DNA of 47,973 bases, taken from the NCBI GenBank assembly GCA_018660405.1, contig JABJKL010000123.1, positions 1-47,973 of the forward strand, given 5' to 3'. Shown here in pieces: positions 43,960 to 45,820 of the stretch; position 1 is the stretch's first letter, and each line of letters starts with the position of its first letter. The position numbers and the translations under genes are program-made. Below the pieces are notes generated by a model. The model was not told the DNA's origin. It made no database searches and saw only the letters and a program-made list of their open reading frames with translations. Origin of the DNA: Pseudomonadota bacterium. GTDB taxonomy: Bacteria; Pseudomonadota; Gammaproteobacteria; Arenicellales; Arenicellaceae.

Positions 43960-44063
43960 GATCGCAACCCAAAGCAATGGTATGGACTCCTCCTCCCCTA
44001 ACCGGCATCTAAGTGCCACACTGGTAATCTAATACCACCAGTCAACGGAAAAGAGGAGCCACC

Positions 44064-45095
44064 ATGAAGCTTAATAGAGTTGGAATAGATTTGGCAAAGA
44101 ATATTTATCAGTTGCACGGCGTTGATCGTTCGGGCAAGACGCTATGGAAGCGCCGCTTGAAGCGTGATCAATGGCTCAGAGTGTTGCTCGATACCATAGA
44201 GCAAGGCTGTGAGATTGGCATGGAAGCCTGTGCGGGTGCGCATCACTGGGCTCGAGAGTTGCAATCTCGAGGTTACACCGTCAAGTTGATTGCACCGCAG
44301 TTTGTAAAGCCGTATGTGAAGAGTAATAAGAATGACGCCAAGGATGCCGAGGCAATCTGCGAAGCGATGAGCCGACCGAATATGCGCTTCGTGACCGTCA
44401 AGCGTGTCGAACAACAGGACATGCAGGCCACGCACCGCATTCGGGCCGAGCTCATTACGCAGCGCACGGCCAAGGCAAATCAGATCCGTGGGCTGGTAGC
44501 CGAGTATGGCTTGGTGGCAGCCAAGCATTTGAGCTCACTTCGTGCCGTGATTCCGTGCTGGTTGGAAGATGCCCAGAACGGCCTGACGGGAGACTTCCGC
44601 GCCTTACTGCACGGTGTATGGAACGATCTGCTGGGTTTGGATGAACGAGTGGGTGAGATGGATCAGCTCATCAAGCGACTGGCCGCAAACAATGAAGACT
44701 GCGTGCGATTGCAACAACTGCGTGGTGTGGGTCCGATGATATCCACCGCCATGGTCGCCACCATGGGTGATGCCAGGCAGTATCACAAAAGCCGACAGAT
44801 GGCTGCCGCCATTGGGATCACACCCAGGCAACATAGCTCCGGCGGCAAAGATCGTCTACTAGGTATTAGTAAGCGGGGTGATGTTTATCTGCGAACGTTA
44901 ATGATCCATGGGGCAAGATCGGTGGTGGCTAGAGCCGGGGGCAAAGATGACCGGCTCAGTCGGTGGATTACCGGCATTGCCACGCGGCGACATCCGAACG
45001 TGGCGGCGGTAGCATTGGCCAACAAAACCGCACGCATGGCGTGGGCCATTCTGCGGCATAAAACCAATTATGATCCTGACTTCGCGATGAACTGA
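44064..45095 (+). CDS. IS110-family (IS1111 subgroup, IS4321/IS5075-like) DEDD recombinase/transposase
   Basis: GIDLAKN, MEACAGAHHWAREL, KLIAPQFVKPYVKSNKNDAKDAEAICEA, and the C-terminal GITPRQHSSGGK serine motif. GAGGAG Shine-Dalgarno motif. Confidence 0.92.
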   Translation: MKLNRVGIDLAKNIYQLHGVDRSGKTLWKRRLKRDQWLRVLLDTIEQGCEIGMEACAGAHHWARELQSRGYTVKLIAPQFVKPYVKSNKNDAKDAEAICEAMSRPNMRFVTVKRVEQQDMQATHRIRAELITQRTAKANQIRGLVAEYGLVAAKHLSSLRAVIPCWLEDAQNGLTGDFRALLHGVWNDLLGLDERVGEMDQLIKRLAANNEDCVRLQQLRGVGPMISTAMVATMGDARQYHKSRQMAAAIGITPRQHSSGGKDRLLGISKRGDVYLRTLMIHGARSVVARAGGKDDRLSRWITGIATRRHPNVAAVALANKTARMAWAILRHKTNYDPDFAMN

Positions 45096-45340
45096 GACAG
45101 GAAACGAAAGAAACACTTCTAAAACGATTGCTTAAGCAAACTGAAAAATGGCAAACAGGTAAGACCGGCGTCAGCTAAACCCGGGAATGTCCACGTACCA
45201 TGAGTACGACAAAGCGATTGGGAACTGGCGCGCGAATAAACCATTATGGCCCGGCATCAACGGTTGCCAACTTTAAGAGGCCGGATATACGGTTGCAGTC
45301 GTGCCATGTCTGCCAAGTCAGCTTGCTTGCAAACCGGGGG
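45096..45340 (+). ncRNA. Candidate element-encoded guide RNA (bridge/seek RNA) in the right end of the IS1111-type element
   Basis: ~245 nt without credible coding potential, between the recombinase stop and the right inverted repeat. Contains local hairpins (ttgcttaagcaa, cgtac-catga-gtacg). Internal 8-mer acggttgc occurs twice (45260, 45290). The 9-mer atatacggt (45285-45293) recurs at the element boundary (45348-45356). Extent and strand are inferred. Confidence 0.45.
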
Positions 45341-45355
45341 GGAGTCCATATACGG

Positions 45356-45820
45356 TCATTCACTATAATTAACGACGTTCTCTTCCATCCATTGAACAAA
45401 ATTTGGATCGAAAGAATTCTTTCGATCTGCCCATATGTGGCGAGAAAGCGCTGAATCAGCGAAAGTTCTCCGCTGTACAGCGCGGACTTGATTCAACTCA
45501 GTCGAATTTTCACCCATTTCTCTAAACGTCCACTCAACGAGCAACAATACGGACATTACCGCTCCCAGAAGGCGGCGGTGTTCTGCGCTGCTTAATGCTT
45601 CATTATTATGGAATTGGTCCCTTAATTCGGCGAGATCCCCGTGCTCAGCAATAAATTGCCAGGCGTCAACAACGGTAGTGAGGCGATTAAAACGAGCCTC
45701 AGCCTCCATCAAGTCATTATTCTGTCTAAGCTCAAGTCCAAGAAAAGCAATGCCGGCAATGATCCCGACGACGCCAAGAACCTCTGCAGTTTCTTTCCAA
45801 ACCCACTTAGGAATTGCCAA
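45356..45820 (-). CDS. Hypothetical membrane-anchored protein
   Basis: One N-terminal TM segment (VLGVVGIIAGIAFLGL) and a helical remainder. No family recognised. Flanked on both sides by IS110-family elements. Confidence 0.5.
   Translation of the reverse strand: MAIPKWVWKETAEVLGVVGIIAGIAFLGLELRQNNDLMEAEARFNRLTTVVDAWQFIAEHGDLAELRDQFHNNEALSSAEHRRLLGAVMSVLLLVEWTFREMGENSTELNQVRAVQRRTFADSALSRHIWADRKNSFDPNFVQWMEENVVNYSE

What the first reader, a model, noticed from the sequence alone, without database searches (positions are those of the whole stretch)
43960..45360. IS1111-type element with a ~245-nt 3' non-coding region (candidate seek/bridge RNA), inserted just past an IS30 remnant
Seen in sequence: the recombinase (44064-45095) resembles IS4321/IS5075-type IS1111-subgroup enzymes. 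The element is bracketed by a 10-bp inverted repeat (43981-43990/45341-45350). The 5' flank is about 75 nt, but the 3' flank is about 245 nt and has only an implausible ORF (45200-45454). Within it, acggttgc occurs twice (45260-45267 and 45290-45297). The 9-mer atatacggt (45285-45293) recurs across the right boundary (45348-45356). Established knowledge: IS1111-subgroup elements have subterminal inverted repeats, encode their guide RNA downstream of the recombinase, and are known for sequence-specific targets such as transposon inverted repeats, attC sites and REP sequences. Inference: the 3' flank encodes the guide RNA, with the duplicated acggt-containing segments as the core-containing loops. 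The left end lies about 20 nt after the stop codon of a truncated IS30 transposase, so the target may have been the IS30 right terminal repeat.
Basis: partly seen in the sequence, partly recalled or inferred. Interest (0 to 1): 0.65.

Follow-up and report, generated by a model that had tools for sequence, protein, structure and literature searches.

The report
RNA-guided IS1111-type element in IS30 end
This is an intact insertion sequence of the known IS1111 group that carries its own guide (seek/bridge) RNA after the transposase gene and has landed, as its guide predicts, in the terminal repeat of an older IS30-type element; it is a well-behaved new member of a known kind.

Summary
Bases 43974-45353 are a 1380-bp IS1111-group insertion sequence. 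It has a 343-aa DEDD transposase, subterminal inverted repeats (43981-93 / 45338-50), a 7-nt left extension, a 3-nt right extension and a 258-nt 3' non-coding region.

That region encodes a conserved, structured RNA (45125-45301). Covariation supports seven helices. A covariance model built from it also finds the 3' regions of ISEc11 (experimentally proven seekRNA) and IS4321.

- Target loop: AAUGUCC (45186-92) is complementary to the right flank GGTCATT. CAAAGC (45210-15) is identical to the left junction.
- Donor ends: ACCAUU (45240-45) is complementary to the left end. AUAUACG(GU) (45285-93) is identical to the right end.

These segments follow the flanks in about 20 relatives and sit where ISEc11's published target matches sit.

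The target is the tip of an IS30-family terminal repeat, 5 bp from its outer end. Thirteen further independent insertions at the same spot of IS30-like repeats were found.

No transcript or transposition data exist. Verdict: new member of a known kind; the IS30-repeat target preference is the modestly new part.

The parts
43659..43975 (+). 5'-truncated IS30-family element: last ~100 codons of the transposase gene (stop at 43957-59) and the inner part of its right terminal repeat
   Evidence: NCBIfam NF033563 IS30 transposase, 128 bits, profile positions 187-267 of 267. It aligns with complete IS30-like elements in L005 (84% aa) and L118 (75% aa).
43939..43975 (+). IS30-like right terminal inverted repeat, inner 37 nt (GTGTTGCATCGACCGGTTGAGATCGCAACCCAAAGC...). 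Its last 5 nt (GGTCA) are now at 45354-45358.
   Evidence: Homologous to both repeat arms of the intact IS30-like elements in L005 (51-nt arms; ends ...AGCAGACA) and L118 (33-nt arms). The same repeat lies next to IS1111-type left ends in 12 more loci.
43970..43975 (+). Left half of the target as read by the RNA (CAAAGC). The last two bases (GC, 43974-75) are the ambiguous crossover dinucleotide.
   Evidence: Identical to RNA 45210-15. The same relation holds in relatives. Unoccupied sites keep AGC.
43974..45353 (+). IS1111-group insertion sequence, 1380 bp by the 7-nt/3-nt extension convention. By comparison with unoccupied sites, the inserted DNA is 43976-45353.
   Evidence: Ends were defined by where 22 relatives stop being alike and by multi-copy genomes. 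The same convention gives exactly the published 1443 bp for ISEc11 (PMC11187229). An identical copy is in L067.
43974..43980 (+). Left 7-nt extension GCAATGG outside the inverted repeat
   Evidence: Conserved as (A)GCAATG(G/A)(G/T) in relatives.
43981..43993 (+). Left subterminal inverted repeat TATGGACTCCTCC
44064..45095 (+). Transposase gene, 343 aa. It has a DEDD N-terminal domain, a PF02371 C-terminal domain and the motif GITPRQHSSG (residues 251-260).
   Evidence: Weak matches to solved IS621 and ISCro4 transposases over residues 189-337.
45125..45301 (+). Structured guide RNA domain (long seek/bridge RNA) closed by helix P1, CGAUUGC (45125-31) with GCAGUCG (45295-301). Inner helices: P3 45147-51/45241-45, P4 45157-60/45164-67, P5 45168-74/45225-31, P6 45180-82/45220-22, P7 45194-98/45204-08, P8 45248-51/45279-82, and the variable hairpin P9 45253-68.
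   Evidence: RNAalifold. Pair counts: 90% of cells paired, 14 pairs with changes on both sides, 0 of 500 shuffles as high, and slid controls collapse. Covariance model R1 finds it after the transposase gene in all distant relatives and in ISEc11 and IS4321. G-U pairs fit the + strand only.
45186..45192 (+). Target guide T (AAUGUCC), on the 5' side of the internal loop between P6 and P7. It is complementary to the top strand of the right flank.
   Evidence: 6 of 7 complementary to GGTCATT (45354-60). It follows different right flanks in relatives, for example L010 9/9, L019 7/7, L016 and L065, Legionella 9/9 and the IS30-repeat cases. ISEc11's CAGUAUUUU sits at the same position.
45210..45215 (+). 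Target guide B (CAAAGC), on the 3' side of the same loop. It is identical to the top strand of the left junction, so it would pair with the bottom strand.
   Evidence: 6/6 with 43970-75. It follows left flanks in relatives (L012 CGGAAGC, L015 CCACAGC, L016 AUAAAC); permutation 0 of 5000. ISEc11's GUGAAAAU sits at the same position.
45240..45245 (+). Donor guide for the left end (ACCAUU), complementary to AATGGT (43976-81). Five of its bases also form helix P3 with AAUGG (45147-51).
   Evidence: It covaries with the left end: T with A in the window, L005 and L017; G with C elsewhere; ATGAG with CUCAU in Dyella. ISEc11 has UUACAU with ATGTAA and IS4321 has CUCAU with ATGAG at the same position.
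45285..45293 (+). Donor guide for the right end: AUAUACG is invariant, and in the window the identity runs on to GU. It is identical to the right end plus flank, ATATAC|GGT (45348-56).
   Evidence: At the same position ISEc11 has AUAUAAA = RE ATATA|AA and IS4321 has AUAGAUUC = RE ATAGAT|TC.
45260..45267 (+). First acggttgc copy. It lies in the loop and 3' arm of variable hairpin P9. It is not a conserved guide.
   Evidence: Alignment of relatives. The window-derived P9 pairing holds in only 23% of cells because the hairpin differs in length and sequence among relatives.
45327..45332 (+). Conserved TTGCAA, a candidate -35 box of a promoter completed only when the ends are joined in a circle
   Evidence: Conserved at near-fixed distance from the right repeat in relatives. 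No + strand promoter was found inside the element. The function is inferred by analogy with ISEc11 (PMC11187229).
45338..45350 (+). Right subterminal inverted repeat GGGGGAGTCCATA
45351..45353 (+). Right 3-nt extension TAC. Its last two bases (AC) are the right-hand copy of the crossover dinucleotide.
   Evidence: ATAC is conserved after the repeat in relatives, and variation starts after it.
45354..45360 (+). Right half of the target, GGTCATT. The first 5 nt are the outer tip of the IS30-like repeat.

Best explanation
Bases 43974-45353 are a complete IS1111-group insertion sequence whose DEDD transposase is directed by an RNA made from its own 3' non-coding region.

The RNA (core domain 45125-45301) folds into a multi-branched structure that carries four short guide segments.
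- The internal loop between helices P6 and P7 reads the target. AAUGUCC (45186-92) pairs with the top strand of the right half-site (ideal GGACATT, actual GGTCATT). CAAAGC (45210-15) pairs with the bottom strand of the left half-site.
- Two single-stranded stretches in the multiloop read the element's own ends. ACCAUU (45240-45) pairs with the top strand of the left end AATGGT. AUAUACG (45285-91) pairs with the bottom strand of the right end ATATAC.

Recombination joins the element to the target at a purine-C dinucleotide, which is GC on the left (43974-75) and AC on the right (45352-53). No target duplication results.

The site chosen here is the outer tip of the right terminal repeat of an IS30-family element. 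The insertion splits that repeat 5 bp from its end.

Shown by sequence analysis: the element's anatomy, RNA structure conservation, homology to the ISEc11 seekRNA region, guide-to-flank and guide-to-end complementarity that follows the flanks across relatives, and the identity of the target.

Inferred, not shown: that the RNA is made and bound by the transposase, that the element moves through a circle with a junction promoter, and the exact crossover bases.
For: - Protein: IS110-family RNA-guided transposase, 329 bits. Both Pfam domains are present, as is the G..P....SG motif.
- Ends: subterminal repeats plus a 7-nt and a 3-nt extension are conserved in 22 relatives. Boundaries agree with multi-copy genomes.
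- RNA structure: 90% of cells are paired, 14 pairs change on both sides, and 0 of 500 shuffles reach this. With the 3' partners slid by 1-3 columns, pairing drops to 26-41%.
- RNA homology: model R1 gives full-length matches directly after the transposase gene in relatives down to 41% protein identity. It also matches ISEc11 (56 bits, E 1e-14), IS4321 (30 bits, E 1e-7) and a Klebsiella element (59 bits). The ISEc11 region is the one shown experimentally to give the transposase-bound seekRNA (PMC11187229).
- Position of guides: ISEc11's segments CAGUAUUUU and GUGAAAAU, which match its published target GTGAAAATACTG, fall on the two sides of the same loop as the window's T and B segments. T lies 5' of B, as published for IS1111-type elements.
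- Tracking of flanks: the sum of longest cognate guide-to-flank matches is 124 against 90.8 +/- 6.6 for shuffled pairings (T), and 98 against 61.5 +/- 4.9 (B). None of 5000 shuffles reaches the observed value. A Legionella relative at 45% identity with different ends and target shows 9/9 and 6/6.
- Donor guides covary with the ends within the clade and in ISEc11 and IS4321.
- Target: unoccupied Dyella-type sites read ...CCCAC AGC GGACAT, and occupied ones read ...CCCAC AGC [AATGAG...ATATAC] GGACAT.
- IS30 repeat: the repeat arms of complete IS30-like elements run through the insertion point. Thirteen further loci have the same IS30 repeat to IS1111 left-end junction, with guides matching each variant.
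Against: - There is no expression, binding or transposition evidence.
- The single-sequence fold is not more stable than shuffles (z = -1.0).
- Only one insertion site of this exact element is known. L067 and L135 carry the same right flank, so recent mobility is unproven.
- The T guide has one mismatch with the actual flank (U opposite T at 45356).
- The right-end guide and the right end are both invariant within the clade, so that pairing rests on identity and on the ISEc11 and IS4321 comparison, not on covariation inside the clade.
- Part of the left-end guide is also predicted to pair inside the RNA (P3), so both pairings cannot hold at once.
- The permutation tests ignore relatedness among elements.
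- The crossover dinucleotide differs on the two sides (GC against AC). This does not fit a simple identical-core model.
Confidence: 0.88

Rival explanations
1. The element is an immobile relic. The transposase gene and RNA are conserved by descent, but this copy no longer moves, and its position in the IS30 repeat is a historical accident with no present function.
For: Only one genomic site is known for this exact sequence. There is one guide-to-target mismatch. No other copy or matching target lies in the 48-kb window.
Against: The ORF is intact with its catalytic-type motifs. All helices and guide segments are intact and score as well as those of multi-copy relatives (176 bits). Both ends are intact. 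Close relatives are multi-copy in single genomes. Position in the IS30 repeat recurs in 13 other loci, so it is not an accident.
Confidence: 0.15
2. The 3' non-coding region is a structured 3' UTR, terminator or stability element for the transposase mRNA and does not guide anything. The short matches to flanks are chance or reflect target sequence carried along at the ends.
For: Each single match is short (6-9 nt), which is near chance level for one sequence. The fold energy is unremarkable. No transcript data exist.
Against: The matches shift with the flanks in relatives with different targets. They lie in loops of a covarying structure. They coincide with the experimentally supported guide positions of ISEc11 (PMC11187229). 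No terminator-like site was found on the + strand.
Confidence: 0.04
3. The true target is only a short generic sequence (about AAGC|GGWCATT) that happens to occur at the tip of some IS30 repeats. There is no real preference for IS30 ends.
For: Relatives with nearly the same T guide sit in non-IS30 contexts (L005, L007, L017, L018). Dyella relatives sit in a short palindrome found without any IS30 gene nearby. The RNA reads only about 13 bp.
Against: Fourteen independent junctions with IS30-like repeats of differing sequence are known. B guides fit each repeat variant, for example CCAAAGC in L149 and GAAAGC in L146. The Dyella palindrome carries the same 14-nt tip as an IS30-like repeat of that genus. 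The two views partly coincide, because RNA guidance means that any site with the sequence is a target.
Confidence: 0.3

Closest known systems
ISEc11 (IS1111 group), with the experimentally shown seekRNA of Siddiquee et al. 2024 (PMC11187229)
   Same: - Transposase of similar length, 42% identical over the full length.
- Subterminal repeats with a 7-nt left and 3-nt right extension.
- Long 3' non-coding region that matches the window-derived covariance model end to end (56 bits).
- Target-matching segments on the two sides of the same internal loop, top-strand match 5' of bottom-strand match.
- End-matching segments at the same places.
- A TTGCAA-type -35 box near the right end.
   Different: - Different repeat sequence, different guide sequences and a different target (GTGAAAATACTG against the IS30 repeat tip).
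- Only 42% protein identity.
- ISEc11 has RNA, circle and transposition data. This element has none.
IS4321 / IS5075 (IS1111 group), which insert into the 38-bp terminal repeats of Tn21-family transposons (Partridge and Hall 2003, cited in PMC11208160)
   Same: - Both target the terminal repeat of another mobile element at one fixed position and orientation.
- The end motifs are similar: IS4321 has AATGAG-ATGGTCACTCC... and ...GGGAGTGACCAT-AGA, and this clade has AATG(G/A)(G/T)-ATGGACTCC... and ...GGAGTCCAT-ATAC.
- The 3' region is matched by the model (30 bits).
   Different: - 38% protein identity, which is not the closest named relative.
- The host element is an IS30-family IS, not a Tn3-family transposon.
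- The insertion lies 5 bp from the outer end of the repeat.
IS621 bridge RNA system (IS110 group; Durrant et al. 2024, PMC11208160; Hiraizumi et al. 2024, PMC11208158)
   Same: - One RNA carries separate target-reading and donor-reading segments.
- Each half-site is read on a different strand.
- Crossover occurs at a short dinucleotide.
- The transposase C-terminal domain is detectably related (E 9e-7).
   Different: - The RNA is 3' of the gene, not 5'.
- The order of the strand matches is reversed.
- The donor segments lie in a multiloop rather than a simple internal loop, as Durrant et al. noted for IS1111 elements.
- The subterminal repeats are long.
- The dinucleotide is not identical on the two sides (GC and AC).
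Unnamed IS110-family element on Pseudomonas veronii 1YdBTEX2 plasmid LT599585.1 (annotated 'Probable family 20 transposase')
   Same: - Closest annotated record: 71% protein identity and 69% DNA identity over the whole element, including the 3' region.
- Same repeats and same RNA architecture.
   Different: - Different target: left ...GGCCAAAAGC, right AGACATAAC. Its guides are changed to match, with T guide AUGUCU.
- It is not in an IS30 repeat.

Membership tests
IS1111 group of the IS110 family | DEDD (RuvC-like) N-terminal domain plus PF02371 C-terminal domain with the G..P....(S/T)G motif. Transposase length 330-350 aa. | tested here: met
   Pfam PF01548 (E 2e-19) and PF02371 (E 2.5e-21). 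NF033542 at 329 bits, cut-off 140. 343 aa, with GITPRQHSSG at residues 251-260. Criteria are from PMC11187229.
IS1111 group of the IS110 family | Subterminal inverted repeats of 7-17 bp, with short extensions outside them (7 nt left, 3 nt right) | tested here: met
   13-nt repeat with 12/13 matching. GCAATGG lies outside it on the left and TAC on the right, both conserved across 22 relatives. The same rule reproduces ISEc11's published length.
IS1111 group of the IS110 family | The longer non-coding region lies downstream of the transposase gene | tested here: met
   258 nt downstream against 90 nt upstream.
IS1111 group of the IS110 family | Site-specific insertion in one orientation without target duplication | tested here: met
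   Flanks ...CAAAGC and GGTCATT... share no duplication. Unoccupied and occupied sites were compared in Dyella-type targets. The IS30 repeat is continuous across the insertion point. Fourteen insertions share position and orientation.
seekRNA / bridge RNA of IS1111-type elements | Non-coding-region RNA homologous in sequence and structure to an experimentally shown seekRNA region | tested here: met
   Model R1, built from this clade, matches the ISEc11 3' region over all 181 positions (56 bits, E 1e-14) and IS4321 (30 bits). Rfam itself has no such family.
seekRNA / bridge RNA of IS1111-type elements | [quoted passage not shown] | tested here: met
   Window: 45186-92 against 45354-60 (6/7), and 45210-15 = 43970-75 (6/6). 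They follow the flanks across relatives, 0 of 5000 permutations, also in Legionella and in the IS30-repeat cases. Their position coincides with ISEc11's.
seekRNA / bridge RNA of IS1111-type elements | Segments that read the element's own ends (donor recognition) | tested here: met
   45240-45 is complementary to 43976-81, with covariation. 45285-91 is identical to 45348-54. The homologous segments of ISEc11 and IS4321 match their own, different ends. Within the clade the right-end pair is invariant, so that half is weaker.
seekRNA / bridge RNA of IS1111-type elements | The RNA is transcribed, processed and bound by the transposase, and is required for circle formation and transposition | not testable with these tools
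   No expression or biochemical data are available. No internal + strand promoter was found, which fits co-transcription with the transposase gene.
   38% protein identity to IS4321-family transposases. The target is an IS30-family repeat. The two share only the group.
IS30 family (the interrupted host element) | IS30-type DDE transposase and terminal inverted repeats | tested here: met
   The fragment matches NF033563 at 128 bits over the last 81 profile positions. Its 3' flank aligns with the repeat arms of complete elements in L005 and L118. The element is 5'-truncated here, and no left repeat is present in the window.

The most novel reading that the evidence does not exclude
This clade of IS1111-type elements has specialised on the outer tip of IS30-family terminal repeats, and on short palindromes that carry the same tip sequence, as a preferred landing site. 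This parallels the way IS4321 and IS5075 specialise on Tn21-family repeats. The bottom-strand guide has been re-written many times in nature to follow variants of that repeat. Each insertion cuts the IS30 repeat 5 bp from its end and so should disable that end of the host element. I found no description of this target class in the searchable literature.

A second, more speculative point concerns helix P3. An upstream RNA segment (AAUGG, 45147-51) copies the element's left end and pairs with the left-end guide. This could act as a built-in decoy or switch.
Probability: 0.5. Interest if true: 0.45.

Novelty: new member of a known kind. Interest (0 to 1): 0.35.

Why it matters
RNA-guided IS110/IS1111 recombinases are being developed as programmable DNA insertion tools, and natural examples of retargeting show which RNA positions can be changed.

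This clade offers about 20 naturally reprogrammed guide and target pairs on one conserved scaffold. It gives a clear map of the four guide segments for an IS1111-type RNA. It also gives sequence evidence on the crossover dinucleotide, which is GC on the target side and AC on the donor side, or GT and AT in a Legionella relative.

Biologically, it adds IS30-family repeats to the list of mobile-element ends that IS1111-type elements use as safe landing sites. This would silence one end of the host IS.

For genome annotation the result is practical. The region should be annotated as one intact IS with a non-coding RNA, nested in an IS30 remnant.

Tried and rejected
- Rfam search of 43000-47973 at E up to 10 gave only two chance-level hits unrelated to IS elements. 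There is no curated family for these RNAs.
- I first read CGATTGC (45125-31) as a possible left-end guide. I rejected this because it pairs with GCAGUCG (45295-301) in every relative (helix P1).
- I tested whether the variable triplet after AUAUACG (GUU in the window) follows the left or right flank. There was no consistent relation. The matching GUU in the first acggttgc copy is shared with only three relatives (L008, L009 and nearly L017), so it remains unexplained.
- Single-sequence folding gave no significant stability (z = -1.0). The minimum-energy fold recovers P1 and P5-P7 but not P3, P4 or P8.
- The promoter scan found no + strand promoter inside the element. It found one chance-level site on the - strand.
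- L067, a second contig with the identical element, was hoped to give a second insertion site. It has the same right flank and diverges only 97 nt left of the element, at a 7-nt microhomology, so it is uninformative or chimeric.
- A search for the IS30 left repeat in the window found nothing.
- An apparent extra left-repeat motif in L010 was a chance match.
- The alphaproteobacterial and Bacteriovoracaceae relatives were inspected, but their ends and targets could not be resolved cleanly.
- Partridge and Hall 2003 could not be read because the paper is not held.
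Full report
**1. What is in the sequence**

The ORF at 44064-45095 (+) encodes 343 aa. It matches both Pfam domains of IS110-family transposases and NCBIfam NF033542, 'IS110 family RNA-guided transposase', at 329 bits. It carries the C-terminal motif GITPRQHSSG.

On their own these short repeats are near chance level for 1.4 kb. One search lists unrelated repeats of the same quality.

Just upstream, 43659-43959 encodes the last ~100 residues of an IS30-family transposase (NF033563, 128 bits).

**2. Ends of the element**

A scan of one genome per species found 64 loci that encode relatives. A Pseudomonas veronii plasmid carries a 69%-identical full-length element.

Twenty-two relatives at 60-81% protein identity share three end features:
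- the same repeats, ATGGACTCC...GGAGTCCAT;
- a conserved (A)GCAATG(G/A)(G/T) outside the left repeat;
- ATAC outside the right repeat, beyond which the sequences differ.

Four copies in Dyella halodurans give the same boundaries.

With the usual IS1111 rule of a 7-nt left and 3-nt right extension, the window element is 43974-45353, or 1380 bp. The same rule reproduces the published 1443 bp of ISEc11 (PMC11187229). An identical copy exists in another metagenome contig, L067, with the same right flank.

**3. The 3' non-coding region is a conserved structured RNA**

The 258-nt region aligns well across relatives. RNAalifold and manual refinement give a domain closed by CGAUUGC/GCAGUCG (P1, 45125-31 / 45295-301). 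It contains:
- a short helix P3;
- a hairpin P4;
- a long arm P5-P6-P7;
- a stem P8 capped by a variable hairpin P9.

Pair counts on 19 sequences support this fold:
- 90% of cells form standard pairs.
- 14 pairs change on both sides.
- None of 500 shuffles reaches the observed values.
- Pairing falls to 26-41% when the 3' partners are slid by 1-3 columns.

G-U pairs fit only the + strand. The single-sequence fold energy is not unusual (z = -1.0), so the support is comparative, not thermodynamic.

Rfam has no matching family. I therefore built a covariance model, R1. It gives full-length matches directly after the transposase gene in relatives down to 41% protein identity, and only one match in the window.

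R1 also matches the 3' regions of three annotated elements:
- ISEc11 at 56 bits;
- IS4321 at 30 bits;
- a Klebsiella plasmid element at 59 bits.

For ISEc11, that region was shown to be essential, to act in trans and to yield the RNA that co-purifies with the transposase (PMC11187229).

**4. Where the guides are**

*Target loop.* The internal loop between P6 and P7 holds two segments.
- On the 5' side, AAUGUCC (45186-92) is complementary to the right flank GGTCATT (45354-60), with one mismatch.
- On the 3' side, CAAAGC (45210-15) is identical to the left junction (43970-75).

Across relatives these two segments change with the flanks:
- L010: GUAAGGUCC against GGACCTTAC.
- L019: AACGGCU against AGCCGTT.
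- L016: GAUACACAC against GCGTGTATC (8 of 9).
- L012: CGGAAGC.
- L015: CCACAGC.

Summed longest matches for cognate pairs exceed all 5000 random re-pairings for both segments. That test does not correct for relatedness among the elements.

A Legionella relative with different repeats and a different target shows 9/9 and 6/6 at the same positions.

In the model alignment of ISEc11, the segments CAGUAUUUU and GUGAAAAU fall on the same two sides of the same loop. Both match its published target GTGAAAATACTG. The order, with the top-strand match 5' of the bottom-strand match, is the one published for IS1111-type elements.

*Donor ends.* Two further segments read the element's own ends.
- ACCAUU (45240-45) is complementary to the left end AATGGT (43976-81).
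- AUAUACG (45285-91) is identical to the right end.

The first base of the left-end guide follows the last base of that left-end hexamer: A with T in the window, L005 and L017, and C with G elsewhere. L022 is the one exception. Dyella has CUCAU with ATGAG.

ISEc11 and IS4321 have different sequences at both positions, and those match their own ends:
- ISEc11: UUACAU with ATGTAA, and AUAUAAA with ATATA|AA.
- IS4321: CUCAU with ATGAG, and AUAGAUUC with ATAGAT|TC.

These donor segments lie in the multiloop, as Durrant et al. noted for IS1111 elements.

The duplicated 8-mer is therefore not the pair of guide loops.

**5. Crossover point**

Unoccupied versions of the Dyella-type target are common and read CTTCCGACCCAC-AGC-GGACAT (11 loci). 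Occupied sites read ...CCCAC-AGC-[AATGAG...CCATATAC]-GGACAT.

So the GC conventionally counted as the first two bases of the element is already present in the target. The element brings AC at the other end.

In the Legionella relative the corresponding pairs are GT and AT. A purine-pyrimidine dinucleotide with a shared second base thus flanks the element on both sides.

I infer that strand exchange occurs there, as at the core dinucleotide of IS621 or the AG of ISPpu9. The exact circle junction is not known.

If the junction is ...TATAC|AATGG, it creates TTGCAA-18 nt-TACAAT using the conserved TTGCAA at 45327-32. No + strand promoter lies inside the linear element. This is inference only.

**6. 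The target is an IS30 repeat**

After removing the element, the window reads GTGTTGCATCGACCGGTTGAGATCGCAACCCAAAGC|GGTCA-TTCACT.

A complete IS30-like element in L005 (84% identical over the fragment) has 51-nt inverted arms. These align with this stretch and end ...CCCAAAGCAGACA and ...GTTAGCAGACA.

In Dyella jiangningensis (L118), another IS30-like element has 33-nt arms. One arm is interrupted at the same position by a relative of the window element, whose guides match that site.

A pattern search for GTGTTGC, 22-30 nt, then the IS1111 left end found 12 more loci in diverse genomes. In all of them the unconstrained spacer is recognisably the same IS30-type repeat. Four still have the IS30 transposase C-terminus upstream. 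In the four full-length elements whose guide regions could be read cleanly, the guides match the local flanks.

The insertion lies 5 bp from the outer end of the repeat.

Relatives with similar guides also sit in other contexts. Examples are a 26-nt palindrome in Dyella whose first 14 nt are the reverse complement of the IS30-type tip. So the RNA-read sequence, not IS30 as such, defines the site.

**7. Comparison and verdict**

All testable defining features of the IS1111 group and of its seek/bridge RNA are met. Expression, binding and mobility cannot be tested here.

The element is not an IS4321 or IS5075 variant. It is 38% identical to IS4321, against 42% to ISEc11 and 71% to the unnamed P. 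veronii element.

It is a new member of a known kind. The IS30-repeat target class and the set of naturally retargeted guides are useful but incremental. A literature search found no prior description of IS1111-type elements that target IS30 repeats, but the library is incomplete.

Noticed in passing
window 45926-47449: A second, unrelated IS110-family element, probably of the IS110 group. It has a 422/435-aa DEDD transposase (46112/46151-47419; NF033542 at 172 bits), a ~225-nt 5' non-coding region and a 30-nt 3' end, so it is a candidate carrier of a 5' bridge RNA. A 99.7%-identical copy with different flanks (L139) defines the ends. Rfam finds nothing in it.
   Followed up: partly
window 47437-47451: The right end of the second IS reads GAAGCGGTCATT|CA. 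The 13 bases AAGCGGTCATTCA equal the reconstructed target of the first IS (AAGC|GGTCATTCA). This is either a coincidence or a potential second landing site. It was not resolved.
   Followed up: no
L143:~150-680: A 522-bp derivative of this IS clade keeps both ends and the guide RNA region (model R1, 114 bits) but has no transposase gene. It is inserted in an IS30-like repeat. It looks like a non-autonomous mini-element that carries only the RNA.
   Followed up: partly
L068, L070, L073, L086, L097, L100, L101, L111, L113, L118, L120, L126: A ~26-nt palindrome, G(T/A)CCG-CTTCCGACCCACAGC-GGACAT, is found nearly unchanged in Dyella, Rhodanobacter, a Solemya symbiont, Methylophaga, Brevundimonas and others. 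Its first 14 nt are the reverse complement of an IS30-like repeat tip (GTCGGAAGCGGACA). Dyella relatives of the IS insert in it in either loop orientation, with the bottom-strand guide adapted to each. Its origin is unknown; it could be a REP-like unit or an IS30 footprint.
   Followed up: partly
window 45147-45151 with 45241-45245: Helix P3 pairs the left-end guide with an upstream RNA segment (AAUGG) that has the same sequence as the element's left end. The outer pair covaries (A-U, G-C, G-U), so the helix looks real, yet it competes with DNA binding. It may be a decoy or a conformational switch.
   Followed up: partly
window 45260-45267 and 45289-45296; L008, L009, L017: The triplet after ACG is the same in hairpin P9 and after AUAUACG in the window (GUU/GUU) and in three relatives (UAU/UAU). 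It differs between the two places in most other relatives. No partner sequence was found.
   Followed up: partly
L017:3775-3822: Tandem duplication of the last 22 nt of the right end (AAACTAGGAGGAGTCCATATAC twice) in an Oleiphilus relative.
   Followed up: no
L067:1-81 against window 43796-43876: The contig with the identical IS diverges from the window inside the IS30 remnant, at a 7-nt repeat GGCTAAA. The cause is either a deletion variant or a chimeric low-coverage assembly.
   Followed up: partly
window 45356-45820 (-): A 154-aa ORF with no Pfam or NCBIfam match. Its stop codon (TGA, complement of 45356-58) lies inside the 5-nt IS30 repeat tip, so its C-terminus was probably altered by the original IS30 insertion.
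   Followed up: no
window 43540-43658: An AT-rich stretch directly precedes the point where the IS30 remnant starts, with a 17-nt imperfect palindrome at 43615-50. What truncated the IS30 element is unknown. A HiPIP gene (43210-43512, -) lies just beyond.
   Followed up: no
L027-L030: In a Bacteriovoracaceae genome, four identical repeats contain a 48%-identical IS1111-type gene next to a fragment of an IS30-type transposase gene on the opposite strand. This may be another IS1111-in-IS30 association in a distant lineage.
   Followed up: no
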